A stretch of DNA of 64,000 nucleotides from Escherichia coli (GTDB taxonomy: Bacteria > Pseudomonadota > Gammaproteobacteria > Enterobacterales > Enterobacteriaceae): assembly GCF_003018255.1 (NCBI RefSeq), contig NZ_CP027440.1. One strand, given 5' to 3'. The position numbers were made by a program, and so were the translations under genes. The notes beneath the pieces were generated by a model. The model did no database searches, was not told the origin of the DNA, and was given only the letters and a program-made list of their open reading frames with translations. Positions 19,143-55,699 of the stretch are shown one piece after another (positions within the stretch are counted from its first letter, which is position 1; each line of letters opens with the position of its first letter).

Positions 19143-19526
19143 TTATTCATAGCGTCTGCTACGTGCGGGACGAGGTCGGGTGTACCAGGCAATGCTGCCT
19201 AACAATGCCCCGACCAGAGCCATAAATAAAAATCCGACCAGTGCCCCTAACCACTTTCCCGCGGTAGAGCCTAAATCGCTTTCAAATCCCGACACCGGGG
19301 CATCAGGGATCCGGCTCATCACCCAGATGTAACGCGCCATTGCCCAGACGAAATAGCCACACCATGTATAGAAAGCCCACAAAGCCAATTTGCCGCCAGG
19401 GCTGCGAGAGAGTCTCTCTTCCATCTTTGTCGAACCGTATTCCATTTTGAGATAACCCGGAAAATTCAGACTTAGTACTATTATGTGATAAAAGTCACAT
19501 TTTTCCACATTGGATGAGCCAGTCAA
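19143..19526 (-). CDS. yedR: Inner-membrane protein YedR (start uncertain)
   Basis: Small hydrophobic ORF in the expected position. Confidence 0.6.
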   Translation of the reverse strand: MTGSSNVEKCDFYHIIVLSLNFPGYLKMEYGSTKMEERLSRSPGGKLALWAFYTWCGYFVWAMARYIWVMSRIPDAPVSGFESDLGSTAGKWLGALVGFLFMALVGALLGSIAWYTRPRPARSRRYE

Positions 19527-19737
19527 GACTCAATCATTTTTTGAACAAATAGATAAATTTTGCGCAACGGCGGTGAATACAGGAAAATTCGATTTGAACG
19601 ATGTTATTTATCTTTGATTTCGGCTTTATTAATTCACTCAATCAATATATTGGCACTGATTACAATTATACCTTTTTATTTTTCTGTGTCATCATGCCTC
19701 CGTTATTAGCCTTTTATCGTCTTGTTTATATTTTTTT

Positions 19738-19762: not shown

Positions 19763-20068
19763 ATGCCTTCATTAATGTGCGCGAGATCACACCAGCCGTT
19801 TAGCACACAATCATTGATACTCCCTATCTTTTCGATCAACTCATAACATATTGATATACATCCATAATGTTCGTGAATATTTATATTCAGAATTCATAGC
19901 CACGAATTATATTAAATAGATTAGAAACATTTTGAAATCTTTTAAATACATTTGTTACATGTAATCTTTAAAATAAAATGAACTTCATAGAATAGTATCC
20001 AAATGTGCTTTTTTTGGATAACAGCACTTATTGATATATTCATGAAGATTATAATCACAAGGGAATAC

Positions 20069-20157
20069 ATAATGAAAAGAAAAGTTCTGGCAATGCTGGT
20101 CCCGGCGTTATTAGTTGCTGGCGCAGCAAATGCGGCTGAAATTTATAATAAAAATGG
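20069..20157 (+). pseudogene. yedS: 5' fragment of porin gene yedS (signal peptide + AEIYNKNG), truncated by the prophage
   Basis: [29 protein letters not shown] is a typical OmpC-family leader and mature start; the frame collapses right after. Confidence 0.75.
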
Positions 20158-20222: not shown

Positions 20223-20244
20223 TGGCGACAAAATGGCGGCAGCG
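20223..20244. repeat. Prophage attachment-site core, left copy (tggcgacaaaatggcggcagcg)
   Basis: 21/22 identical to 54609..54630; lies immediately after the ogr stop, where P2-type attP sits. Confidence 0.7.
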
Positions 20245-21654: not shown

Positions 21655-22136
21655 GACAGAAGCCCTCCCACCGTTTTACTGATATCGCTTAAGGCAGATG
21701 TTGCCGTTCCCTGCAGATTATTCAGCTGCGCACTGAGATCACCGAACATATCGGACAGGGATTCATCCACCCGTTTGAGCGACAGGGTGAACTCAATCCG
21801 GCGCGGCATACCGTTGCGGAAAAACTCCGTTTTAGTCTGATTCAGTCCCTCAATCACATACATGCCGTAAATCGTGCCGCTGCCTTCAATCAGAGGCCAT
21901 GCTTTCCCCTGTTCTGCCATCTGCTCAAGTGCCAGCAACGACAGCCTGCCGCCTGTTATCTCCGGCATAAGAACACCGGAAAGCGTCAGCATGTCGTTGT
22001 CTGGTCCCAGAAACTGCGTGGACGGACGACGATTTACCCGGCTGTTAACCGCATGTCGCCAGCTGCGTTGATACTGCAGTTCCTGATACGGCACGGTGCG
22101 CAGCATAAACACGTACAATCCCAGCACCATCATCAT
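21651..22136 (-). CDS. U: Tail protein U (P2 gpU-like)
   Basis: Size and P2 gene order. Confidence 0.8.
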   Translation of the reverse strand: MMMVLGLYVFMLRTVPYQELQYQRSWRHAVNSRVNRRPSTQFLGPDNDMLTLSGVLMPEITGGRLSLLALEQMAEQGKAWPLIEGSGTIYGMYVIEGLNQTKTEFFRNGMPRRIEFTLSLKRVDESLSDMFGDLSAQLNNLQGTATSALSDISKTVGGLLS

Positions 22137-25100
22137 GCGTCGTATCCCCCCTGATCGCTGTAGTTACTCCTGGCTTTTGCCTTCAGCCTGCGTTCACGTT
22201 CATCAAGCTGGCGTGCCACCTCCCGCGCAATATCCTGCGCACTTTGTCCTGGCTGCGTCTGAATGATGATCTGCGTCGGTGCCTCAATCCGTTGAACGAG
22301 CGGCACAGTGGCTGCGCGACTCACAATTGCTTCTCCACCTTTCGCGGGAAGTGCCAAAGGGTGCAACGGTGGAAGCTCTGCTGGCGCGGCAGCAACGCCC
22401 ATCATTCCGGCAACAACGGCAGCCAGTGCAGCTGTATTTCTCCGGCTGGTCACATTTGCCGGGCCGTTAACAATTTCCGGCCCGTTTTCACCGACGATGC
22501 CAAACTGCCCGCGCGGGATATACCCGCCGCTGTCATACATCCCCGCAAAGCCATATCCCCATGATGGAAAACCACCCGATGGCATCATCACTTTACCGTC
22601 TGCATTCACCGTCGCAGGTTGCTGACGCGTCACGCTTTCCGGCAGTTTTGCCTTTGCGGCCTCTTTACTGACAATGCCGAGCTTCTCCAGCAACCAGGAA
22701 ACGCCGGATTTCAGGGAGTCCAGCGGATGCATGACCATATTCAGCCCTTCCACCAGTGCCTCCCCGAATCGCCGCCCCATTGCCGCTGCGCTCTGCAGTT
22801 CGGCAGAGGTCGACTTAACGGGCGTCAGCAGATCAGTAAACCAGCCCCACAGCGCCTGCACTTTGTCGCCAATCCACTGGAACACGGGCTTAAGCGGTTC
22901 GAACGCTGCACTGATGGGACCTGCCGCCGCTTTGAATCCTTCCACCACGCCACCGAGAAATGCGGTGATGGGTTGCCAGTATTTCCAGACAACCAGCGCC
23001 ACGCCCGCCAGTGCAGTAACCACAAGACCTATCGGACTGAGCAGAGCACCTAACAGACCAGATATGGCATACAGGGCAACGCGCAGCATCGCCAGTGGAC
23101 CAGATGCCAGTACTCGCAGCACCGTGCCTGCGGCGGCCAGTCCACCGCGCAGTACCGACAGAGGATTCATAAACATCACAGCAACAGCACGTAAACCGGA
23201 TAATCCAGACCGCAAAAGTGCAACCGGCGCACCTGCTACAGTTTTCAGGACATTTCCCGTCAGTGATGCCGTGCGGCGCAAAGACGACAACGGCGCAGTA
23301 AGTAAACCTGCGGCGTTGCCCGATGAAGCAAGCCCGCGTCGCAGCAGTGCCAGTGGTGCGCCAGCCAGCCAGGACAACGCGCTGCTGGTTCGAGTTACTG
23401 CTGCCGTAACGAAAGATAACGTTTTGATACCCAGCACAGAGAATCCCAGACGGATCACTGCCAGCGGCCCCAGCACTGCAGCCAGCGCCACCGCTAAGGT
23501 GCCGAGGCCGACGGTAACCGCAGCCACAACAGCCGATGCTTTCATCAGTGTGCCTGTCAGTTCCGGGTTAGCTTCCACCCAGCGACGCAACGCCCCCGTG
23601 ACGCTTTTCACCGTGTACAGAATATCCATCAGCGGCTGGCGCAGCGTTTCGCCCAGGCTGCTGAAGGTGTTCTGCGCTCCGGTTTTGACCAGCAACCACT
23701 GCGCAGAAAGTGAATCCTTGTTAATGTCGGATTCTTTCTGCATGGAGCCGAGCGCATCATTGCCCGCTGTCAGTTTTAACTGACGCTGCAGTTCCGGCAG
23801 GTTGTTTGCCAGTTTCGCCGCGTCATCGCCAAACTCTTTACCAAACAACATAGTCATGGCAGACAGGCGCTTGTCCTGCGGCAGCGCGTTTACCTTCTCC
23901 AGCACGCGCTGGATGGTTCCCATCGCATCCTTCGTCATCTGCTTTTCAATCACTTCAGGATTGAGTTTCAGCAAATTCATCCCTTCAAAGAAACTTTTGC
24001 TTTGCATGGTGGCAATGGACAATTCACGCACCATCGCGTTTGCTGCACTGGCTGCAACCTCTGGCGCAGCGCCCAGTGTCAGGAAGGTGGAACCCAGCGC
24101 CGCCGCTTTACGATAATCCAGACGGTCAGCCACACCGCCCAGACGTTGCATCACATCAATGATGTCTGCCCCTTTCGACATGGCGTTATCATCCAGATAG
24201 TTCAGCGCATCACCGAGCTGTTCAATATTGCGGGTGGGGATTTTGTAGAGCTGGGCGATTTTCCCCAGACTTTCTGACAGTTCATCCGCTGGCAGCTCAA
24301 AGGCTGTTGCCGCCTTTGCTGCCGTACTGGCGAAGGCCAGCAGGTCACGTTTCTGATCTTCCCAACTGTCGTCAGGGTTTGCGACGTTCATGCGCGCACC
24401 ACCTTCAACCAGTGCAGCGAAATCCACCGCACCGTTTTCCATCGGCAACTGTTCGCTGGCAGCCTTGATGGCATCCTGCATTTCATAAAAACGTGCAGTG
24501 CGGTTGCCATTATCGTCACGCAGACCATTGACCTGCTTTGCCACACCTTTCATGGCATCTTCCATGCTGGTATAGCTTTTTACTGCCGCCATCACTGGTG
24601 CGCCCATTGCCAGCCCTGCAGCCGTGGTGGTGGCTCCGGCACCTGCAATACGATCACGCACCTCCAGCGAACGGGCATAACTGGCACGCGCTGCATTCAT
24701 CCTGCGCTGAGCTTCCCCCAGTCGCTTCAGCCGCGCCTCCTGTTTCGAAAGTTCCTGGTTATAACGTGATGTTTCACGGGCTAAACGGGCAGTTGCTCCC
24801 GCATCGTCTTTCGCAGAAATTCCCGCCCGGTACAGTTCAGCACGCACAAGCGCCGTCTGCTGCTGCAGCTTTTTCTGGCGTTCTTCCAGGCGCTGAACAG
24901 CCAGCCGTTGACGGCCCAGAGCAACAACCTGACGTTGCGAAGGCGGCCCCATCGCTCCCAGTTCCTGACTGAGCAAATTTGCACGCTGGCGGGCATAGTT
25001 CAGCCTGTCGCCTAATTTCTGATTTTCTGCCTGCAGCTTTCGGAAGCTGTCCAGACTGCTCCCGGCCTGATCAAGCTGCTTTATTGCATCGCGGGATTTT

Positions 25101-25210
25101 TTGACAGCAGCAGCCAGTTCTCTTGAACTGGCCTGCGCAGATCGAAATGGGCGGGTGAGCTTGTCAACCGCATTAAGAATGACCTGCAGACGCAGGTTGT
25201 TATCACTCAT
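22133..25210 (-). CDS. T: Tail tape-measure protein (P2 gpT-like, 1025 aa)
   Basis: Very long Ala/Leu-rich coiled-coil protein between E/E' and U. Confidence 0.88.
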   Translation of the reverse strand: MSDNNLRLQVILNAVDKLTRPFRSAQASSRELAAAVKKSRDAIKQLDQAGSSLDSFRKLQAENQKLGDRLNYARQRANLLSQELGAMGPPSQRQVVALGRQRLAVQRLEERQKKLQQQTALVRAELYRAGISAKDDAGATARLARETSRYNQELSKQEARLKRLGEAQRRMNAARASYARSLEVRDRIAGAGATTTAAGLAMGAPVMAAVKSYTSMEDAMKGVAKQVNGLRDDNGNRTARFYEMQDAIKAASEQLPMENGAVDFAALVEGGARMNVANPDDSWEDQKRDLLAFASTAAKAATAFELPADELSESLGKIAQLYKIPTRNIEQLGDALNYLDDNAMSKGADIIDVMQRLGGVADRLDYRKAAALGSTFLTLGAAPEVAASAANAMVRELSIATMQSKSFFEGMNLLKLNPEVIEKQMTKDAMGTIQRVLEKVNALPQDKRLSAMTMLFGKEFGDDAAKLANNLPELQRQLKLTAGNDALGSMQKESDINKDSLSAQWLLVKTGAQNTFSSLGETLRQPLMDILYTVKSVTGALRRWVEANPELTGTLMKASAVVAAVTVGLGTLAVALAAVLGPLAVIRLGFSVLGIKTLSFVTAAVTRTSSALSWLAGAPLALLRRGLASSGNAAGLLTAPLSSLRRTASLTGNVLKTVAGAPVALLRSGLSGLRAVAVMFMNPLSVLRGGLAAAGTVLRVLASGPLAMLRVALYAISGLLGALLSPIGLVVTALAGVALVVWKYWQPITAFLGGVVEGFKAAAGPISAAFEPLKPVFQWIGDKVQALWGWFTDLLTPVKSTSAELQSAAAMGRRFGEALVEGLNMVMHPLDSLKSGVSWLLEKLGIVSKEAAKAKLPESVTRQQPATVNADGKVMMPSGGFPSWGYGFAGMYDSGGYIPRGQFGIVGENGPEIVNGPANVTSRRNTAALAAVVAGMMGVAAAPAELPPLHPLALPAKGGEAIVSRAATVPLVQRIEAPTQIIIQTQPGQSAQDIAREVARQLDERERRLKAKARSNYSDQGGYDA

Positions 25211-25639
25211 CGTTGGCCCCGCTTCTCTGAATCGCTTTATACCGCCATTCCAGCACTTCGGTCAGCGGCATAACGTCAGTAACGGATGGCGGCCAGTGAA
25301 AAATGGTGGCGATATCTGCCACCAGATCGTCAACCGTCAGGCTGTCGGTAAACCGGCAAGCACCGACTTCTTCAACAAAAAAGTGACAACCTCAACCGAC
25401 ATGGCAGTGAGATCTGCCGGGTCCATCTCTGCAATTTCCTGTGCAGTCAGTGCCGGACTGGAGATGCGGGGGATCACGATCATCATCGCGTTTACATCCA
25501 TATCCATAATGGCCTGCAGGCGTGTACCGCGCAGCGCACCGGACTGCGGTTTACGCAGCACAATTTCGGTGATTTCTGTTTTACCGCGCTTGATGGGGGT
25601 ATCCAGTTGAATGGTCTTTTCAGTCTGCTTATCGCTCAT
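25207..25639 (-). CDS. E: Tail assembly chaperones E and E+E' (E = 25337..25639; E' by -1 frameshift at TTTTTTG)
   Basis: Minus-strand slippery heptamer at ~25375..25381; the -1 frame then stays open to a TGA overlapping the T start codon (ATGA). Confidence 0.7.
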
Positions 25640-25693
25640 TTTGCTGTCCTGTCAATTGGGTTCTGGCGCGGTATCCCGCGCCGTTCAGATATA

Positions 25694-26209
25694 TCAGAGG
25701 CCGAGGGCGTTGCGGTGCGCTTCCATCAGGTCCACACCGTCCACAATTTCCACCATGTTGATAAGGTCCACTTCATAGAGCACCTCACCATTGATGGTCA
25801 GCTTCGCGTAGCTGTTGGTACTGGTCACTTTGGTGGTGTTGCTTTCGCCCGTCTTCCACTCGCCGGAATCCACTTCTTTGTGACGTCCACGCACGACAAG
25901 CTCCACAGCCTGCACTTCCCCGGTATCGTCACGCTGAATAGAGCCGGTAAAGCGCAGCTGGATGCCATCCACCGTGGCTTTACCCATCTGTTTAAACAGC
26001 AGCAATTCAGTACCACCAATGGAAAATTCTGTGTCCAGCGCACTGTCATCAAGCCCCAGATCCACATCCACCGCACCCGGCATTCCGCCGCCGCGATACT
26101 TCTCATATTTGCGGGTGAATTTCGGCAGCGTCAGCGACTCAACGATCCCCTGCCAGTTGTTCCCGTCGTTAAACAGGTTCAGGTGTTTTAATTTGCGTGG
26201 TAAAGCCAT
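25694..26209 (-). CDS. FII: Tail tube protein (P2 gpFII-like, 171 aa)
   Basis: Size and order. Confidence 0.88.
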   Translation of the reverse strand: MALPRKLKHLNLFNDGNNWQGIVESLTLPKFTRKYEKYRGGGMPGAVDVDLGLDDSALDTEFSIGGTELLLFKQMGKATVDGIQLRFTGSIQRDDTGEVQAVELVVRGRHKEVDSGEWKTGESNTTKVTSTNSYAKLTINGEVLYEVDLINMVEIVDGVDLMEAHRNALGL

Positions 26210-26218
26210 GTTGTCCCC

Positions 26219-27391
26219 TTACGCGCTGACCTGGCTGGCGAAATTCACCAGGTACTGATCGGTGATGCGCTGACGCAGCATCAGGTTTTCAAGTGGCGGC
26301 ACTGGCGTGTAGTCGTAGTCGATGGTGAGTTTTCCGGCTTTCAGCGTGTCTTTGTCGTTCACCGACTCATCCAGCCAGCAATCACCACCAATGAGATAGC
26401 CCTGACTGACCAGGCTGCGCATTTTGGCGCGGATACCTTCGATAATGTCGCGGGCCAGCGACGGGTTAAGCGGTTTATCCACCGCCCACATGTGTGCTTC
26501 TGCCATCGTGTCCATCAGCACCTGCGCCGTGCGGGTGTAGTTTTCGAAGGCAAAGAGCGGGTCATCACTCAGGCAGCGGGAACCCCAGAAGCGGAAACCG
26601 TCTTTACGCACAAGCGTGGTGACGTCGTTCTGGTTCAGCAGACCTGCATCGGTTGCCGGGTCCTGCAGATCCCAGAACACATCTGCAGAAATTCCGGTGA
26701 CACCGTTCACGCCCACGTTGGACAGGCTTTTGTGCCATCCGGTCTGCTCGTCAATTTTGGCGCGCAGACCAAGCGCACGGGCGGTGGCATATGCCGTTGC
26801 TTCGGCATTCAGCACCGTGTCCCAGCCAGTAAAGTCAGGCCAGATCAGCATCCCTTCGCGCTGGCTGAAGTTTTCGCGGTAAGTGATCGCCTCCTGCACT
26901 GTCTTGCAGCCATACGCTGACAGGTAAGCAAATCCACGCAGGCTTTGCGCCACGCTCAGCAACTCAGTAGCTACCGCCTTGGTGTCGTGGCCTGGCACGC
27001 CGAGAATGCGCGGTTTAACGCCGAGCTGTGACTGGGCAGATAACAGGGCTTTCATACCTGTTTTTTTACCTTCAGCAGTCACTGCGCCGATGATATTGGT
27101 CGTGGTTTCGTCTTCCGTTTCACCCTGCGGCACACGCACAACAATGGTCACGGGTTTTGCCTGGTCAGCGATGGCATCCAGCGAACGGGCCAGAGTACCG
27201 GACTCACCCGCTTTACCGCTGGCAGTCAGCACATCAGTGATCAGCACGGGTTTATTAAGAGGAAACATTTTTGCATCGGCATCATCGCCCGTGCAGACCA
27301 TACCCACGATGGCGGTGCTCACCGTGGTAATAGATCGGGTGCCTTCGTTGACTTCAACAACGCGCACCCCGTGGTGGTAATCCTGAGCCAT
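26219..27391 (-). CDS. FI: Contractile tail sheath protein (P2 gpFI-like, 390 aa)
   Basis: Size and order. Confidence 0.9.
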
Positions 27392-27533: not shown

Positions 27534-28106
27534 TCAGGGGGATTCATTGATCTTATTTGCCGGAAATTTTCTATAAATGGTAGAAACGCCTACATCAAAA
27601 ATCAGTGCAATACGCTGTCTTGATTCTCCGGCCTCGAGTAAACGCCCAATCTGTGCCCACTGTTCGGTGGTCAACTTAGGACGGCGTCCACCTACTCTGC
27701 CTTTGGCACGAGCTGCAGCCAGCCCTGCCCTGGTACGTTCAACTATCAGTTCGCGTTCCATTTCAGCCAGGGCACCCATGACATGAAAAAAGAAACGGCC
27801 CATTGGGGTACTGGTATCAATACTGTCAGTCAGGCTTCTGAAATTCACACCACGCTGGCGCAACTCTTCTATCAGCGTAACAAGATGCCGCATACTGCGC
27901 CCCAACCTGTCCAGCTTCCAGACAACCAGCGTGTCTCCTGCCGATAGTGTCCTGAGTAGTTTTTTCAGCCCCGGTCTGTCGGACTTAGTGCCACTGATTT
28001 TGTCCTCAAAAATCCGCTCACATCCCGCGCAGTTCAGTGCATTACGTTGCAAATCGGTGTTCTGGTCATTTGTTGACACGCGTACATAGCCAATAAGCAT
28101 GATCAT
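27534..28106 (-). CDS. Serine-recombinase DNA invertase (Hin/Gin/Pin family)
   Basis: N-terminal GYVRVSTNDQ catalytic-serine motif and C-terminal HTH; abuts the invertible tail-fibre segment. Confidence 0.9.
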   Translation of the reverse strand: MIMLIGYVRVSTNDQNTDLQRNALNCAGCERIFEDKISGTKSDRPGLKKLLRTLSAGDTLVVWKLDRLGRSMRHLVTLIEELRQRGVNFRSLTDSIDTSTPMGRFFFHVMGALAEMERELIVERTRAGLAAARAKGRVGGRRPKLTTEQWAQIGRLLEAGESRQRIALIFDVGVSTIYRKFPANKINESP

Positions 28107-28127
28107 CCCCCTGAATAAAAACCGGAG

Positions 28128-28664
28128 ATGATGCCAGTTAGCTGTTACCTCTGCATTTTCTTAAACGTTGGTTTGGGAGAAGGTTCAGCATTACCTGTTG
28201 GTGCGCCTGTTCCGTGGCCTTCAGAGACACCTCCAACAGGCTGGCTGAAATGCAACGGGGCGGCTTTTTCTGCTGAAGAATACCCGGAACTGGCAAAGGC
28301 TTACCCGACAAATAAATTGCCTGATTTACGAGGTGAATTTATTCGTGGCTGGGATGATGAACGTGGTGTGGATAGTGGGCGAACTCTGCTTTCAGCGCAA
28401 GGAGATGCTATTCGAAACATTACTGGCGGTTTTGGTCAGTTGCGCGTAAACAGCGAAATTAATGCAATTGTCGATGTTCAAAGTGTGAGTGGGGCTTTTT
28501 ACGGAGGTACCTCAGTCCGGAATAACATCAATGTGTCTATGACATACGCTAATGACCGAAAAATCCGACAAGATGTTCACTTCTCGGCGGCAAATGTTGT
28601 TCCAACAGCAAATGAAAATCGTCCACGTAACATCGCCTTTAATTATATTGTGAGGGCCGCATGA
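28128..28664 (+). CDS. Alternative tail-fibre C-terminal module (silent in this orientation; fused to H after inversion)
   Basis: No independent start is needed; its frame passes through the crossover site coding FLNVGLGEGS, matching LTYLGLGEAA in H. Confidence 0.65.
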   Translation: MMPVSCYLCIFLNVGLGEGSALPVGAPVPWPSETPPTGWLKCNGAAFSAEEYPELAKAYPTNKLPDLRGEFIRGWDDERGVDSGRTLLSAQGDAIRNITGGFGQLRVNSEINAIVDVQSVSGAFYGGTSVRNNINVSMTYANDRKIRQDVHFSAANVVPTANENRPRNIAFNYIVRAA

Positions 28665-29265
28665 TGAATAAAGCTGTATTAAATAGCAAACTCATTGCCA
28701 TAAAAGCGGGAGACATTATCATTTATAATTATGATGGTGAAACGCGGGAATATATTTCTACATCAACTGAATATCTCGCTGTCGGCGTCGGTATCCGGCA
28801 TGTTCTTGTTTGGATGCACCAGGTACACATAAAGCTGGTTATGCAATTTGTCGTTCTGTAGATTTAAACTCATGGGAATATGTGCCAGACCATCGCGGTG
28901 AAGTTGTCTATAACACCGAAACGGGAGAATCAAAAGAAATCACAGCTCCGGGTGATTACCCTGAAAATACAACCACTATCGCCCCATTAACGCCATACGA
29001 TAAATGGGATGGCGAGAAATGGGTGACGGATACCGAGGCACAGCATAGCGCCGCAGTAGATGCAGCGGAAGCACAGCGCCAGTCGCTGATTGATACTGCA
29101 ATGGCTTCCATCAGTCTGATTCAACTGAAATTGCATGCCGGACGTAAACTGACGCAGGCAGAAACAACCCGGCTTAACGCTGTGCTGGATTACATTGACA
29201 CGGTGACGGCAACAGATACCAGCACCGCGCCGGATGTCATCTGGCCTGAACTACCGGAGGCGTAG
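28661..29265 (+). pseudogene. Tail-fibre assembly (chaperone) gene paired with the alternative fibre module; split over two frames (28661..28861 and 28810..29265)
   Basis: C-terminal part ends ...VIWPELPEA like the G paralogue ...IEWPTPPVVQAR; the N-terminal 66 aa is in a different frame. Confidence 0.5.
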
Positions 29266-29680
29266 GCCATTCAATATCTGGAGCACTGGAGGTATCAACC
29301 AGTTCCAGTGCGTCCAGATAATCCAGCCATAAATTATATTGTTCCAGTTCGTCACCTTTCAGACGACCAATAGCAGCTTTGCCAGGCCACTGATGGGTGT
29401 TGATGTAGGTATTGGCTTCTGAAACCAAAGATATTTTTTTCATTTCAGCCATCAACACCTCATCCTCTTTTGAAGGCGGTGGGGAATTAATCCATATTGG
29501 CCGTCCTGAACTGTCAGCGCCAATTTCTTTCCCTTCTGGATGCAGCCCAAGAAATTGCTCATATCTTTCTCTGGTAATTTCAATAACATCATCAGGAAGC
29601 GTTCCCGCATCCTCATATTCTGGAAACAATTCTTGCAGATAAAAACTTTTACTTCCGGGTGAAAAGAATACTGAGTTCAT
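29237..29680 (-). CDS. G: Tail-fibre assembly protein (P2 gpG-like) for the currently expressed fibre
   Basis: 147 aa, directly after H. Confidence 0.85.
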   Translation of the reverse strand: MNSVFFSPGSKSFYLQELFPEYEDAGTLPDDVIEITRERYEQFLGLHPEGKEIGADSSGRPIWINSPPPSKEDEVLMAEMKKISLVSEANTYINTHQWPGKAAIGRLKGDELEQYNLWLDYLDALELVDTSSAPDIEWPTPPVVQAR

Positions 29681-29682
29681 TC

Positions 29683-31185
29683 TTACCGTCCAATGATTAA
29701 GGCTGAGACGCTGGTATCTGAAGGAAAGGCTGCATTCAGTGGTTTGTCGACTTTGAATACAATCGTATTATTCCCCCTGACAGCGGCAAAAGAACAAACC
29801 GCAGTCGCGTATGAACCTGTAATATTACTGGATACACCACCATAAGCTGTTGTTGATACCAGAGGGATAACGCCCAGCACCTTATTAGGAAATACAAAGG
29901 GCAATGTGGCTGTGGCAATATAAGACTTATTAGAACCTGTGATGGAATAAGCATTATCAGTCATTCCATTCATCGCCACTGGGCCGCTTATACTTACAGT
30001 AACCATCTGAATGATTAGCCCGTCAGGTTGACGAATCACAAAATTTCCATTGCCACCAGTAACCGTCCAGAAAGACATATCAGGGATTTGGTTTTCCCCG
30101 TTGCCCACATTCCGTTTTGCCGCTTCTCCCAAACCAAGGTATGTGAGAAGACCAGCTACATCCTTTCCACTCAAATTGGTAAGCGTATTGTCCAGCGGTT
30201 GTTTACCTGCCAGCGCATTAAGCATTGTCGTGGCAAAGTTCGGATCATTCCCCAGTGCCGCCGCCAGTTCGTTCAGTGTATCCAGTGCAGCAGGTGCAGA
30301 ACCCACCATTCCTGCAATCGCCGATTTCACAAAAGCCGTAGTGGCAATCTGTGTATTGTTGACCGACTGCGCCGCCGTGGGGGCTGTTGGCGTTCCGGTG
30401 AGTGCCGGACTCGACAACGGTGCTTTTAGTGCCAGCGCATTGTTAATGGTGGTACTGAAATTCGGATCATTGTTAATGGCTGCGGCTATTTCTTTCAGCG
30501 TGTCCAGCGTGGCTGGCGCACCATTAATAAGGGCCGTCAGTGCCGCCTGTACAAACGCAGTGGTCGCAACCTGCGTGGTATTATTCCCCGCCGCTGGCGT
30601 TGGCGCTTTGGGGGTTCCGGTAAATGTCGGGCTGGCTTTTGGCGCGTACTGTGAATGCGGGTCCGGTGCGGCAAGATGTTTTGCCATCTGATCATCCGCG
30701 TACACCTTCAGCTCCAGTGCCTTGTCATCCACATACTTGCGGGTTGCCAGCACTACAGCAGGGTCGATTTTCAGGGTGATATTGTCCGTGCTGCTGGTAA
30801 TCAGCACCATGCGCACGGTCTGAGTGCGCCCGCTACCTTCAGCCAGTTGCGGCTTATAGCTTTCCGGGCAGTTGCCCACGGCAATCAATGCCCCGGACTC
30901 ATCAAACAAGCCCACTTCACGTATCCACCAACCGCCCTCGTTTTCAGGGATCACCTGTTCGGCAATAATCTGGCTGCTGTTCTGCGGGTCGATATAAAGC
31001 ATATTCAGCGCAGCCCGGCGTTTCTCATTTACCAGTGCCGTCTGCTTTGCGTCCGGCGTTGGCAATACTCCACCGCCATCGCCCACCGCCATATGGGTAA
31101 TTTTTAGCGGCACACCGAGCGCGGCGGCGCTGGCAAGTTTCGCCGCGCCAATATCCGTCAGCAGGGTATAAAATTTTGTGCTCAT
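29683..31185 (-). CDS. H: Tail fibre protein (P2 gpH-like, 500 aa); N-terminal ~349 aa constant, C-terminal part inside the invertible segment
   Basis: Conserved N-terminus MSTKFYTLLTDIGAAKLA...; internal ~73-aa tandem repeat; crossover site within the ORF. Confidence 0.9.
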   Translation of the reverse strand: MSTKFYTLLTDIGAAKLASAAALGVPLKITHMAVGDGGGVLPTPDAKQTALVNEKRRAALNMLYIDPQNSSQIIAEQVIPENEGGWWIREVGLFDESGALIAVGNCPESYKPQLAEGSGRTQTVRMVLITSSTDNITLKIDPAVVLATRKYVDDKALELKVYADDQMAKHLAAPDPHSQYAPKASPTFTGTPKAPTPAAGNNTTQVATTAFVQAALTALINGAPATLDTLKEIAAAINNDPNFSTTINNALALKAPLSSPALTGTPTAPTAAQSVNNTQIATTAFVKSAIAGMVGSAPAALDTLNELAAALGNDPNFATTMLNALAGKQPLDNTLTNLSGKDVAGLLTYLGLGEAAKRNVGNGENQIPDMSFWTVTGGNGNFVIRQPDGLIIQMVTVSISGPVAMNGMTDNAYSITGSNKSYIATATLPFVFPNKVLGVIPLVSTTAYGGVSSNITGSYATAVCSFAAVRGNNTIVFKVDKPLNAAFPSDTSVSALIIGR

Positions 31186-44428: not shown

Positions 44429-44458
44429 GTATTTTGCCTATTTTAGGTGATAGCGCGC

Positions 44459-44481
44459 GCTCGTATCCCCGCCACGCCTGC
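44459..44481. other. Probable cos site (cohesive-end sequence)
   Basis: The minus strand reads GGCGTGGCGGGGATACGAG, resembling the P2/186 19-nt cohesive end (GGCG(A/T)GGCGGGGAAAGCA...) as I recall it. Confidence 0.5.
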
Positions 44482-44520
44482 CCGCTTTATGTAGTGGTTT
44501 TCATGCACCTGCATGATCTA

Positions 44521-52849: not shown

Positions 52850-53037
52850 CTTTTGCTTTTATATCTGCGCCTAAAATAAAAATGAGCCGCAGGTTAACCG
52901 CAAAAATTACATGCTCACATAGCAAAAAGAATAGCCAACTTAATTATGGCTTCAGTGAGATGTATGGTCGTAGGATTTCATACATTGACACTGGTTATAC
53001 ATACAGTGAAAATGCTCTCTACTGGAGGGCATTTTTT

Positions 53038-54081
53038 ATGGCAGTACGAAAACTAACCACAGGGAAATGGCTTTGCGAATGTTACCCCGCCGGACGCAGC
53101 GGGCGTCGCGTGCGTAAACAGTTCGCTACCAAAGGCGAAGCATTAGCTTTTGAGCGTCACACGATGGAGGAGGCAGAAGCTAAGCCTTGGCTTGGTGAAT
53201 CGGTAGACCGTCGAACTCTACAGGATATCGTTGAACTCTGGTTCAAACTGCACGGCAAATCCCTGACCGCTGGCGAGCATGTTTACGACAAGTTGATACT
53301 GATGGTCGATGCTCTCGGAAATCCCCTCGCCACCGATCTAACATCCAAAATGTTCGCGCACTATCGCGATAAGCGCCTGACGGGTGAAATCTACTTCAGC
53401 GAAAAATGGAAGAAAGGAGCCAGCCCGGTAACTATCAATCTGGAGCAAAGCTATCTGAGTGGGGTCTTTAGCGAGTTAGCCCGACTCGGTGAATGGACAG
53501 CACCAAATCCACTGGAGAACATGCGTAAATTCACCATTGCCGAAAAAGAAATGGCCTGGCTGACACATGAACAAATCACAGAGCTTCTGTTCGACTGTCA
53601 ACGCCAAAGCCCCCTGCTCGCTCTTGTCGTCAAAATCTGCTTGAGCACCGGAGCACGTTGGCGCGAAGCTGTGAACCTGACACGTTCTCAGGTCACGAAA
53701 TACCGAATCACATTTGTCAGAACTAAGGGCAAAAAAAACCGCAGCATTCCGATCAGCAAAGAGCTGTATGAGGAAATTGTTGCCCTAGACGGCTTCAAAT
53801 TATTTACTGACTGCTACTTCCAGTTTTTAGCCGTGATGGATAGAACCTCGATCGTACTACCACGCGGGCAACTTACCCACGTTCTACGCCATACGTTCGC
53901 AGCACATTTTATGATGTCCGGCGGGAACATTCTTGCTTTGCAAAAAATCCTGGGCCACCACGATATAAAAATGACTATGCGCTATGCACATCTTGCCCCT
54001 GATCACCTTGAAACAGCACTGCGTTTCAATCCATTAGCCACACTTTCCACTAAAGCAACGAACCTTGAAGCAAACAGCTAA
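53038..54081 (+). CDS. int: Tyrosine integrase (P2/186 family)
   Basis: ORF 52882..54081 trimmed to MAVRKLTTGKWLCECYPAG...; C-terminal catalytic region HVLRHTFAAHF...MRYAHL. Confidence 0.9.
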   Translation: MAVRKLTTGKWLCECYPAGRSGRRVRKQFATKGEALAFERHTMEEAEAKPWLGESVDRRTLQDIVELWFKLHGKSLTAGEHVYDKLILMVDALGNPLATDLTSKMFAHYRDKRLTGEIYFSEKWKKGASPVTINLEQSYLSGVFSELARLGEWTAPNPLENMRKFTIAEKEMAWLTHEQITELLFDCQRQSPLLALVVKICLSTGARWREAVNLTRSQVTKYRITFVRTKGKKNRSIPISKELYEEIVALDGFKLFTDCYFQFLAVMDRTSIVLPRGQLTHVLRHTFAAHFMMSGGNILALQKILGHHDIKMTMRYAHLAPDHLETALRFNPLATLSTKATNLEANS

Positions 54082-54121: not shown

Positions 54122-54607
54122 ATGTCCGGCATTGCGGATTTTTTTTCAGTTGTGGCTGCAGTTGGGGCAGTTGTAATCATCCCTGCTGCATATCAACCTA
54201 TTTATCAATCATCTAAAACAAAAAACTATGAGTCTTTGGTAAAAGTTGATTGGGGCAATGAAGGTGACATCTCTACTTCTTATCCACATTTCATACATAT
54301 ACAGTTAGAGAAAGCAGAAGGTGATTGGACTTTTTCAGGAGAACTCATCTGCACAATTAATCCCGAAGAAAAGTTCGTCATTCAGGGTAAACTGAGATGT
54401 CTTAGGACTATAGATGCTGTAATACATCGTACTATTGGCTGGCGGGCTATTGAGATTGGAAAGGCTAAAATCAAGTATGACCGCCGCACAAATCAGTGTC
54501 GATTTATCCCACAAAAGGTTGCTCAGAAGAAACTTGAGACTGATTGCGAACGTGCAATCTTCAGCACCAGCCTCCCTTTATGGGGAAATGACAAATCTCC
54601 GGTATAA
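54122..54607 (+). CDS. Hypothetical protein (161 aa) with an N-terminal hydrophobic segment, cargo between int and attR
   Basis: ORF ends 1 nt before the att core; no recognisable motif. Confidence 0.5.
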   Translation: MSGIADFFSVVAAVGAVVIIPAAYQPIYQSSKTKNYESLVKVDWGNEGDISTSYPHFIHIQLEKAEGDWTFSGELICTINPEEKFVIQGKLRCLRTIDAVIHRTIGWRAIEIGKAKIKYDRRTNQCRFIPQKVAQKKLETDCERAIFSTSLPLWGNDKSPV

Positions 54608-54608
54608 G

Positions 54609-54630
54609 TGGCGACAAAGTGGCGGCAGCG
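54609..54630. repeat. Prophage attachment-site core, right copy (tggcgacaaagtggcggcagcg)
   Basis: Direct repeat of 20223..20244 with one mismatch. Confidence 0.7.
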
Positions 54631-54721
54631 GTTGGCATTGTCCCGTAATCGCCACTCCTTATCACTAACCTAACTTATTGATTGTCTTGCAACTCATTGT
54701 TATTTCTAACCCATTTACATA

Positions 54722-55699
54722 AATGGCAATAAAGTTGAGCTATACGGCAAGATGGTTGGTGAGCGAATTCTGACCGACCGTGAAAATGGTGAAAAAGGCG
54801 ATAATTCTCAAGATACCTCTTATGCCCGTGTAGGCGTGAAAGGTGAAACTCAGATCAACCCTGAACTGACTGGTTACGGTCAGTTTGAACTAGACCTGGA
54901 AGCATCAAACAGACACAACCCTGACCAAACTCGTTTGGCATATGCTGGTTTGAGTTACAAAGATTTTGGTTCATTCGACTACGGTCGTAATGTCGGTGTC
55001 GCGTATGATGCAGAAGCATTTACTGATATGTTTGTTGAGTGGGGCGGTGACTCATGGGCTGGTACTGACCTGTTCATGACCAACCGTACCAACGGTGTTG
55101 CAACCTATCGTAACACAGATTTCTTTGGCATGGTTGAAGGTCTAAATTTTGCTCTGCAATATCAGGGTAAAAATGAAGGTACAGGCAACTACAAAGCAAA
55201 TGGCGATGGCCATGGTTTATCTGCAACTTACACTATTGACGGTTTCTCATTTGCTGGTGCTTATGCAAACTCTGACCGTACTGATTGGCAGTCTGGTGAT
55301 GGTAAAGGCGAAAGAGCCGAAGTTTGGGCGTTGTCAACAAAATATGACGCTAACAATGTCTATGCTGCTGTGATGTACGGTGAATCTCACAACATGAATT
55401 CCGACGACGGTGATGTTGTGAACAAAACACAAAACTTCGAAGCTGTTCTGCAATATCAGTTCGACTTTGGTCTGCGTCCATCCATCGGTTACTCCTATTC
55501 TAAAGCACTGGACGTAGCAGGTTACAAAGATTCTGATCGTCTGAACTATATTGAAATCGGTACCTGGTATTACTTCAATAAGAATATGAACGTATATACC
55601 GCTTATCAGATCAACCTGCTTGATAAGAGTGATTATGTTCTCGCTCATGGACTGAACACCGACGACCAACTGGCAGTTGGTATCGTCTACCAGTTCTAA
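54722..55699 (+). pseudogene. yedS: 3' part of porin gene yedS (OmpC/OmpF family), resuming at NGNKVELYGK...
   Basis: Porin beta-barrel signatures, ending in the canonical ...GIVYQF. Confidence 0.8.

What the first reader, a model, noticed from the sequence alone, without database searches (positions are those of the whole stretch)
25207..25639. Intact programmed -1 frameshift site for tail chaperones E/E'
The slippery heptamer TTTTTTG lies near the end of E, and the -1 frame continues open for ~58 codons to a TGA that overlaps the tape-measure start codon (ATGA). This matches the conserved tail-assembly-chaperone frameshift of contractile-tail phages and suggests the tail module is functional.
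Basis: partly seen in the sequence, partly recalled or inferred. Interest (0 to 1): 0.25.

Follow-up and report, generated by a model that had tools for sequence, protein, structure and literature searches.

The report
P2-type tail chaperone frameshift site
This is the well-known programmed -1 ribosomal frameshift that lets P2-like phages make two tail-assembly chaperones (E and E+E') from one start codon; it sits intact in a complete P2/Fels-2-like prophage of E. coli and is ordinary.

Summary
All features are on the minus strand. Gene E (25639..25337, 100 aa) carries an in-phase T TTT TTG heptamer (25382..25376) 12 codons before its stop. The -1 frame then runs 57 sense codons.

One detail is wrong. 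The -1 frame stops at TGA 25205..25203, inside ATGAGTGA, 8 nt into the tape-measure gene T (ATG 25210). It does not stop at the TGA of "ATGA", which is in the +1 frame.

The heptamer alone means little: 32 copies in the window against about 22 expected. Homology decides the case:
- The 0-frame part matches Pfam Phage_TAC_7 (1e-18) and the -1-frame part matches Phage_P2_GpE (1.1e-18).
- Phage P2 has the same layout, annotated as an E+E' join with the same 8-nt overlap with T.
- All 80 related viral contigs keep TTTTTT[G/A] in phase, even where the preceding amino acid changes.
- Substitutions in E' fall mostly on third codon positions of the -1 frame.

The surrounding ~34-kb prophage has every structural gene full length, so "intact" is supported; "functional" is only inferred. 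I found no conserved downstream RNA structure. An SD-like GAGGT 6 nt upstream is a possible, untested stimulator.

Verdict: already known, low interest.

The parts
25337..25639 (-). Gene E (0-frame tail assembly chaperone, 100 aa), ATG 25639, stop TGA 25339..25337; SD AGGA at 25650..25647
   Evidence: ORF list; translation; Pfam PF10109 Phage_TAC_7 E=1e-18; PHROG 103 'tail protein' 8e-42
25376..25382 (-). Slippery heptamer T TTT TTG in X XXY YYZ phase; tRNA-Phe (P site) and tRNA-Leu (A site) slip back one base
   Evidence: In phase in 13 of 18 diverse relatives. In the 81-sequence set (window plus 80 IMG/VR loci): 76 TTTTTTG, 5 TTTTTTA. In 54 unique upstream regions the preceding codon is always NNT although its amino acid varies T/L/S/A, Phe is always TTT, and Leu is only TTG/TTA
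25203..25376 (-). E' segment: -1 frame, 57 sense codons plus TGA (25205..25203), re-reading base 25376; no start codon between the frame opening (25391) and GTG 25322
   Evidence: Pfam PF06528 Phage_P2_GpE E=1.1e-18 on fusion residues 107-143; substitutions against Fels-2/RE-2010/ST437phi4.1 concentrate at codon position 3 of this frame
25203..25639 (-). Full E+E' fusion coding region (145 aa; junction ...VTFL|VEEVG... inferred)
   Evidence: tblastn of the fusion places both halves in one location in 388 of 425 matching phage records (place covers at least 80% of the query); nearly all listed rows are two pieces, as expected for two frames. AF2 model pLDDT 90, pTM 0.81, with a helix 74-92 running through the junction
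22133..25210 (-). Gene T, tape measure protein (1025 aa); its first 8 nt (ATGAGTGA) overlap the end of E'
   Evidence: Pfam PF10145; same 8-nt overlap in P2 and in Fels-2, RE-2010, ENT90, PSP3, ST437phi4.1
25694..26209 (-). Gene FII, tail tube protein (171 aa), immediately upstream of E
   Evidence: Pfam PF04985 E=9e-60; 100% identical to Cartapus FII
26219..27391 (-). Gene FI, tail sheath protein (390 aa)
   Evidence: Pfam PF04984/PF17482
25389..25393 (-). SD-like GAGGT (Glu-Val codons) 6 nt 5' of the heptamer; possible frameshift stimulator, untested
   Evidence: The Glu codon here is GAG in 73 of 74 unique E sequences, against 22% GAG elsewhere in E, but several other codons are equally frozen. 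Spacing is at the short edge of the 6-17 nt range searched in PMC4066793
25344..25367 (-). Local hairpin GUCGGU(25367..25362)/ACCGAC(25349..25344) starting 8 nt 3' of the heptamer; probably incidental
   Evidence: (z -0.5 to -1.9). 85% of cells pair, but the structure was derived from this sequence, it is broken in P2/ENT90/PSP3 and other distant relatives, and the slid controls are comparable

Best explanation
This is the E / E+E' programmed -1 ribosomal frameshift cassette of a P2-like (Peduoviridae; Fels-2/Wadgaonvirus-type) prophage.

Most ribosomes translate E from ATG 25639 and stop at 25337, giving the 100-aa chaperone gpE. A minority act differently when Phe-tRNA sits on UUU in the P site and Leu-tRNA on UUG in the A site of U UUU UUG (25382..25376). 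Both tRNAs slip one base 5', and translation continues in the -1 frame for 57 codons. The result is the 145-aa gpE+E', which ends 8 nt inside the tape-measure gene T.

By analogy with lambda G/GT, the shared E domain coats the tape measure T. The E' domain recruits the tube protein FII, so that tube and sheath polymerise to the length T sets. Neither chaperone stays in the virion.

Shown here: the anatomy, the phase, homology of both frames, nucleotide-level selection on the heptamer, purifying selection on the -1 frame, and an intact surrounding tail module.

Inferred: that shifting actually occurs in this prophage, its rate (about 10% in P2, from my memory of Christie et al. 2002; 2-3 times lambda's according to PMC5009743), the junction residue, and the binding partners.
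For: - Sequence and phase.
- Pfam: the 0-frame part hits PF10109 (1e-18) and the -1-frame part hits PF06528 (1.1e-18).
- Gene order FI-FII-E-T-U-D.
- P2 reference annotation: E 19430-19705; E+E' join to 19857; 'site of -1 translational frameshift'; T from 19850, the same 8-nt overlap.
- Fels-2, PSP3 and KS5 are annotated as E+E' frameshifts.
- 13 of 18 diverse relatives (Escherichia, Salmonella, Erwinia, Klebsiella, Burkholderia, Ralstonia, Pseudomonas, Halomonas, Aeromonas) keep in-phase TTTTTTG. All 18 have a -1 extension of 51-71 codons with the motif [VI][DE][DN]x.A[DE][ILV]A..FHW..EL..WR.
- In the 81-sequence set (window plus 80 IMG/VR loci, 55-96% identity): 76 TTTTTTG, 5 TTTTTTA.
- The codon before the run is always NNT although it encodes T/L/S/A. 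Phe is never TTC and Leu is never CTN.
- Against Fels-2, RE-2010 and ST437phi4.1, 10/16, 13/21 and 16/25 substitutions fall on the third codon position of the -1 frame. Amino-acid changes number 5-7 in that frame against 12-20 in the other two.
- Literature: PMC3091744 and PMC5009743.
- All structural genes are full length against phage Cartapus, apart from the diverged tail-fibre and fibre-assembly genes.
Against: - There is no direct evidence of frameshifting or of prophage activity for this sequence.
- The heptamer alone is not statistically unusual.
- No significant stimulatory RNA structure was found. This fits what is reported for P2, but it leaves the source of efficiency unexplained.
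- UUG-to-UUU re-pairing leaves a wobble mismatch, so U UUU UUG is not among the strongest E. coli motifs. In the tetramer tests of PMC4066793, U_UUG was only 1.8-3.6 times background.
- RefSeq/PGAP and most phage records annotate E' as a separate 39-aa CDS starting at the GTG equivalent to 25322.
Confidence: 0.9

Rival explanations
1. E' is an independent small gene. A 39-aa 'GpE family' protein starts at GTG 25322 (the PGAP model) and no frameshift is needed.
For: PGAP and many phage records annotate exactly this CDS. Pfam PF06528 begins at that residue, V107 of the fusion. Most relatives have ATG or GTG at this position (M/V in 14 of 17 sequences in alignment A2).
Against: - No SD precedes GTG 25322; the upstream sequence is acggttgacgatctg.
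- The codon is not a standard start in Ralstonia RsoM1USA (Ala), VHML (Trp) or Mannheimia phiMhaA1 (Ile).
- -1-frame conservation extends upstream of it: the [VI][DE][DN] motif in all 17 sequences, and SLTVDDL in enteric phages.
- The heptamer is under nucleotide-level selection that an independent E' would not explain.
- The P2 annotation and two papers record a fusion product of 142 aa.
- From memory, Christie et al. 2002 reported that E' lacks an initiation site, and they detected fusion polypeptides.
Confidence: 0.04
2. The fusion arises by transcriptional slippage. RNA polymerase adds one extra U in the T6 run, and normal translation of the edited mRNA gives E+E'.
For: A homopolymeric run is present (T6; T7 in the 9 of 81 sequences where the preceding codon is CTT). 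The protein outcome would be almost identical. Nothing computed here separates the two routes.
Against: - Known productive slippage tracts in bacteria are usually 8-9 or more identical bases (general knowledge, reviewed in PMC5009743).
- Conservation here is of phase and of the seventh base: G or A, meaning Leu UUR codons, never C or T in the 80 closest loci. That fits tRNA re-pairing rules rather than run length alone.
- Some relatives use non-homopolymeric heptamers (GGGAAAG, AAATTTT, CCCTTTC), which only ribosomal slippage explains.
Confidence: 0.04
3. The site is an intact-looking relic. The prophage is cryptic or never induced, so the signal is conserved by descent but not used in this host.
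For: There is no expression evidence. The closest 'phage' record (500465-1) is a computational prophage call that includes host genes and split portal and terminase genes. The element disrupts a porin gene and may be fixed in the lineage.
Against: - All structural, lysis, replication, integrase, repressor and cos features are present and full length against the phage genome Cartapus, apart from the diverged tail-fibre and fibre-assembly genes.
- E/E' is 99-100% identical to Cartapus and KP12.
- There are no stop codons or indels in the tail operon.
Confidence: 0.1

Closest known systems
Bacteriophage P2 genes E and E+E' (FETUD tail operon; Christie et al. 2002, J Bacteriol 184:6522; NC_001895 P2p25/P2p26)
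   Same: Same heptamer T TTT TTG in the same phase near the 3' end of E. The -1 extension is 57 codons in both. Same 8-nt overlap of E' with the T start (ATGAGTRA). Same position between FII and T. Both halves are homologous, with the fusion 49% identical.
   Different: E is 100 aa here against 91 aa in P2, because 12 rather than 6 codons follow the slip site in the 0 frame. The E' stop is TGA rather than TAA. Sequence identity is only about 49%. The phage belongs to the Fels-2/186-like branch (Wadgaonvirus/Elveevirus/Felsduovirus) rather than Peduovirus.
Fels-2 STM2699 / STM2697.1, Salmonella phage RE-2010 E/E', Escherichia phages Cartapus and 500465-1, Klebsiella phage KP12
   Same: 85-99.8% nucleotide identity across the whole cassette, with identical heptamer, phase, lengths and overlap. 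Fels-2 notes explicitly describe gpE+E' formed by translational slippage.
   Different: Nothing of substance. Only synonymous and a few conservative changes in E'.
Lambda G / GT tail assembly chaperone frameshift (Levin et al. 1993; Xu, Hendrix & Duda 2004, 2013, 2014)
   Different: There is no detectable sequence similarity. The slippery sequence differs (G GGA AAG in lambda, from memory). Efficiency in P2-like phages is reported as 2-3 times higher. The tail is contractile rather than non-contractile.
E. coli dnaX gamma/tau -1 frameshift
   Same: A homopolymeric X XXY YYZ heptamer and tandem tRNA slippage. An upstream SD-like element is a possible stimulator here (GAGGT).
   Different: dnaX uses A AAA AAG, an SD-like element 10 nt upstream and a strong downstream hairpin, and it yields a shorter product. 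Here the SD-like element is only 5-6 nt upstream, no supported hairpin exists, and the shifted product is longer.

Membership tests
P2-type gpE / gpE+E' tail assembly chaperone pair | 0-frame product homologous to gpE (Pfam PF10109 Phage_TAC_7) | tested here: met
   E=1e-18, 67.6 bits against a cutoff of 25, covering residues 9-88; PHROG 103 at 8e-42
P2-type gpE / gpE+E' tail assembly chaperone pair | -1-frame extension homologous to P2 E' (Pfam PF06528 Phage_P2_GpE) | tested here: met
   E=1.1e-18, 66.9 bits against a cutoff of 23, on fusion residues 107-143. Invariant A108, E128, W132 across 17 fusions
P2-type gpE / gpE+E' tail assembly chaperone pair | In-phase slippery heptamer (T TTT TTG in P2) within the last ~25 codons of E | tested here: met
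   25382..25376, offset 257 (mod 3 = 2), 12 codons before the stop; same site in P2
P2-type gpE / gpE+E' tail assembly chaperone pair | E' frame has no translation start of its own at its 5' end | tested here: inconclusive
   No ATG/GTG/TTG between the frame opening at 25391 and GTG 25322. That internal GTG is what PGAP uses as a start. It lacks an SD and is not a start codon in 3 of 17 relatives, but independent initiation cannot be excluded by sequence alone
P2-type gpE / gpE+E' tail assembly chaperone pair | Located between tail tube gene FII and tape-measure gene T, with the E' end overlapping or abutting the T start | tested here: met
   FII 26209..25694, E 25639.., T from 25210; 8-nt overlap ATGAGTGA; same in P2
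P2-type gpE / gpE+E' tail assembly chaperone pair | Fusion protein actually produced (~10%) and both E and E+E' required for tail assembly | not testable with these tools
   Needs protein detection and genetics. Known for P2 only from the literature (and memory of Christie et al. 2002)
General tail assembly chaperone (lambda G/GT-like) frameshift class, Xu et al. 2004 | Two overlapping ORFs related by a -1 shift, between the major tail/tube gene and the tape-measure gene, sharing one start | tested here: met
General tail assembly chaperone (lambda G/GT-like) frameshift class, Xu et al. 2004 | Chaperone fold shared with solved TACs (e.g. HK97, PDB 2ob9) | tested here: inconclusive
dnaX/IS3-type stimulated -1 frameshift signals | Conserved downstream hairpin or pseudoknot 5-9 nt from the heptamer | tested here: not met
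   z-scores from -1.8 to +2.0 in 15 phages with no common structure. The window-derived hairpin shows no robust covariation and is broken in distant relatives. This agrees with PMC3091744
dnaX/IS3-type stimulated -1 frameshift signals | Upstream SD-like element at a stimulatory distance | tested here: inconclusive
   GAGGT(G) lies 5-6 nt upstream and is conserved at a synonymous site (GAG 73/74 against 22% elsewhere). It is absent in ENT90, VHML, phiE202 and Aeromonas LPM4. Its spacing is at the edge of the 6-17 nt range, and other codons nearby are equally frozen

The most novel reading that the evidence does not exclude
In this Fels-2/Wadgaonvirus clade, and partly in P2, PSP3, KS5 and RsoM1USA, efficient shifting on the intrinsically weak U UUU UUG motif may depend on a so far undescribed upstream stimulator. 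The candidate is the SD-like GAGGU(G) 5-6 nt 5' of the heptamer, pairing with the anti-SD of the elongating ribosome. Separately, the conserved overlap of the E' stop with the T start may couple tape-measure translation to frameshifted ribosomes.
Probability: 0.12. Interest if true: 0.3.

Novelty: already known. Interest (0 to 1): 0.07.

Why it matters
The value is mainly in annotation. RefSeq/PGAP and most phage records split this locus into a 'phage tail assembly protein' and a free-standing 39-aa 'GpE family phage tail protein'. The biological product is a 145-aa frameshift fusion.

The locus is common. Sequences covering at least 80% of this cassette occur in 976 of 5,426 complete E. coli genomes. 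An intact site is one useful marker, among many, that a P2-like prophage or a derived tailocin can still build tails. It opens no new question.

Tried and rejected
1. Downstream stimulatory RNA. Folding 86 nt after the site gave z = -1.9. 50-nt folds in 15 phages gave z from -1.8 to +2.0 with no shared structure. Two candidate hairpins scored on a 40-sequence alignment showed no robust covariation, and the slid controls were similar. Rejected as a conserved element.

2. Terminator-like hairpin with a T5 run inside E' (25324..25304). The T-run is not kept in Cartapus or Fels-2, and the stem comes from the codons for (V/M)ADIA. Rejected.

3. Statistical significance of the heptamer or of the bare ORF pattern. 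Neither is significant on its own.

4. NCBIfam gave no hit for E or for the fusion.

5. A PDB sequence-profile search found nothing meaningful, and Foldseek against the PDB found nothing.

6. Escherichia phage 500465-1 as a reference for 'functional phage'. The record is a prophage prediction with host genes and split portal and terminase genes, so I used Cartapus instead.

7. Christie et al. 2002 (PMC135442) is not held. Its content is cited from memory or through PMC3091744 and PMC5009743.

8. PMC4066793 gives no efficiency figure for U_UUU_UUG; only the U_UUG tetramer is mentioned.

Full report
**1. What is in the sequence**

All genes of this region lie on the minus strand.

- Gene E runs from ATG 25639 to TGA 25339..25337 (100 aa) and is preceded by AGGA at 25650..25647.
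- The heptamer TTTTTTG occupies 25382..25376. Its first base is at offset 257 from the E start (257 mod 3 = 2). The 0 frame therefore reads AC-T TTT TTG, the X XXY YYZ phase required for tandem -1 slippage. It lies 12 codons before the E stop.
- The -1 frame opens at 25391. Counting from re-reading of base 25376, it stays open for 57 sense codons to TGA 25205..25203.
- The predicted fusion is 145 aa.

The tape-measure gene T starts at ATG 25210, and the local sequence is ATGAGTGA. The E' stop is therefore the second TGA, and E' overlaps T by 8 nt. This is the only error in the observation. The true extent is 25203..25639.

**2. Is it more than chance?**

The motif alone is not.

- TTTTTTG occurs 32 times in the window, against 21.9 +/- 4.8 in shuffles.
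- The bare pattern 'in-phase slippery heptamer in the last 30 codons plus a -1 extension of at least 40 codons' is met by 9 of 180 mechanical ORFs. Mostly this happens because the -1 frame runs into an overlapping neighbour.

Homology and conservation are decisive.

- The 0-frame part matches Pfam Phage_TAC_7 (E = 1e-18). The -1-frame part matches Phage_P2_GpE (E = 1.1e-18).
- The neighbours are sheath FI, tube FII, tape measure T, U and D.

**3. Relatives**

The cassette is 99.8% identical to the predicted prophage 'Escherichia phage 500465-1'. It is 99.7% identical to Klebsiella phage KP12, 97% to phage Cartapus, and about 85% to Fels-2, RE-2010 and SopEPhi.

In phage P2 (NC_001895) the annotation gives:
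- E at 19430-19705;
- an E+E' join ending at 19857;
- a 'site of -1 translational frameshift' feature;
- T starting at 19850.

That is the same 57-codon extension and the same 8-nt overlap. Fels-2, PSP3 and KS5 records describe the same frameshift.

A tblastn search with the fusion protein found 425 phage records. In 388 of them a single place covers at least 80% of the fusion. Nearly all listed rows consist of two joined pieces, as expected for two reading frames.

Of 18 diverse relatives, 13 keep in-phase TTTTTTG: Escherichia, Salmonella, Erwinia, Klebsiella, Burkholderia, Ralstonia, Pseudomonas, Halomonas and Aeromonas phages. VHML has TTTTTTC and a Zymomonas element has TTTTTTT. Three use other canonical heptamers (GGGAAAG, AAATTTT, CCCTTTC). 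All 18 have a -1 extension of 51-71 codons carrying a conserved motif.

In the 81-sequence set (window plus 80 IMG/VR loci, 55-96% identity), 76 sequences have TTTTTTG and 5 have TTTTTTA.

**4. Selection at the nucleotide level**

In 54 unique upstream regions:
- the codon before the run is always NNT, although it encodes T, L, S or A;
- Phe is always TTT, never TTC;
- Leu is only TTG or TTA, never CTN.

Against Fels-2, RE-2010 and ST437phi4.1, 10/16, 13/21 and 16/25 substitutions in E' fall on the third codon position of the -1 frame. They cause 5-7 amino-acid changes in that frame, against 12-20 if read in the other two frames. The -1 frame is therefore a protein-coding frame under purifying selection, and the heptamer is constrained as RNA.

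**5. Mechanism**

Best explanation: ribosomal tandem slippage on U UUU UUG. This produces a major 100-aa gpE and a minor 145-aa gpE+E'.

The literature held here states:
- P2 shifts at TTTTTTG to give products of 91 and 142 aa, and P2 lacks a downstream structure (PMC3091744);
- the efficiency in P2-like phages is 2-3 times that of lambda G-T (PMC5009743).

The figure of about 10%, and the essentiality of E', come from my memory of Christie et al. 2002, which is not held.

By analogy with lambda G/GT, the E domain binds the tape measure and E' recruits the tube protein. This step is inferred.

**6. Stimulators**

No conserved downstream structure was found.

An SD-like GAGGT(G) lies 5-6 nt upstream (25393..25389).
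- For it: the Glu codon there is GAG in 73 of 74 unique sequences, against 22% GAG elsewhere in E.
- Against it: other nearby codons are equally invariant; the element is absent in several distant relatives; and the spacing is at the short edge of the range considered stimulatory (PMC4066793).

I keep it as an untested possibility.

**7. Rivals**

- Independent initiation of a 39-aa E' at GTG 25322, the PGAP model. There is no SD. The codon is Ala, Trp or Ile in three relatives. Conservation of the -1 frame extends upstream of it.
- Transcriptional slippage on T6. The run is short, the phase and the seventh base are what is conserved, and some relatives use non-homopolymeric heptamers.
- An unused relic in a cryptic prophage. 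This cannot be excluded, but the prophage is complete.

**8. 'Intact / functional'**

The prophage spans about 20155 to about 54740. Against phage Cartapus the following are full length in single HSPs: portal, terminase, scaffold, capsid, L, X, holin, endolysin, LysB, R, S, V, W, J, I, sheath, tube, E, T, U and D. The tail fibre H matches 436 of 473 residues, and the fibre-assembly genes match only in part, because their C-terminal regions diverge. Ogr, an integrase, a repressor, cII, A and a cos site (44452..44510) are also present. Intactness is supported; function is not shown.

**9. Verdict**

This is a textbook P2-type E/E+E' frameshift cassette, already known. It is present in about 18% of complete E. 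coli genomes (976 of 5,426) and is routinely mis-split by automated annotation. Interest is low.

Noticed in passing
window 20072..20154 and ~54728..55699: The ~34-kb P2-like prophage sits inside a porin gene (Pfam Porin_1, 7e-106) that looks like E. coli yedS, judging by its neighbours. The 5' fragment ends ...AEIYNKNG at 20154. The rest resumes ...NGNKVELYGK near 54728. The junction core is only AAATGG. Flanks are drpB/yedJ/dcm on one side and hchA plus an hprS-like kinase on the other. E. coli OkiPb01675 has the same junction, annotated as an incomplete CDS.
   Followed up: partly
window 27534..30149: An invertible tail-fibre segment. It comprises a Gin-like DNA invertase (27534..28106, minus; 99.5% identical to the Cartapus invertase) and 27-nt inverted repeats at 28156-28182 and 30123-30149 (81% complementary). 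These bracket an alternative fibre C-terminus (28128..28664, Collar domain) and two opposed tail-fibre-assembly genes. This looks like a host-range switch as in Mu/P1.
   Followed up: partly
window 54122..54607 (+): A 161-aa ORF with no Pfam hit lies between the integrase (52882..54081) and the prophage end. This is a typical position for a cargo ('moron') gene. Imperfect 21-nt direct repeats GGCGACAAA[A/G]TGGCGGCAGCG occur near both prophage ends (20224..20244 and 54611..54631) and may be Int arm sites.
   Followed up: no
window 25389..25393 (-): SD-like GAGGT 6 nt upstream of the slippery heptamer. Its Glu codon is GAG in 73 of 74 unique relatives, although GAA dominates elsewhere in E (290 GAA against 82 GAG). 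It is a possible frameshift stimulator, but other codons nearby are equally invariant.
   Followed up: partly
window 25203..25322 (-) and equivalents in RefSeq: Automated annotation (PGAP 'GpE family phage tail protein', 39 aa) and most phage records call E' as a stand-alone CDS from an internal GTG instead of a frameshift join. The Pfam family PF06528 starts exactly at that artificial start.
   Followed up: yes
L020 (NC_049342.1, Escherichia phage 500465-1): This RefSeq 'complete phage genome' and ICTV exemplar (Wadgaonvirus) is a prophage prediction. It includes about 10 kb of host genes (smpB, recN, nadK, grpE, ffh), IS100 fragments, and split portal and terminase CDSs, so it is a poor reference for phage completeness.
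   Followed up: no
window 25304..25324 (-): A terminator-like hairpin (7-bp GC-rich stem plus T5) inside E'. The T-run is not conserved in Cartapus or Fels-2, and the stem arises from the palindromic codons for V-A-D-I-A. It is probably incidental.
   Followed up: yes
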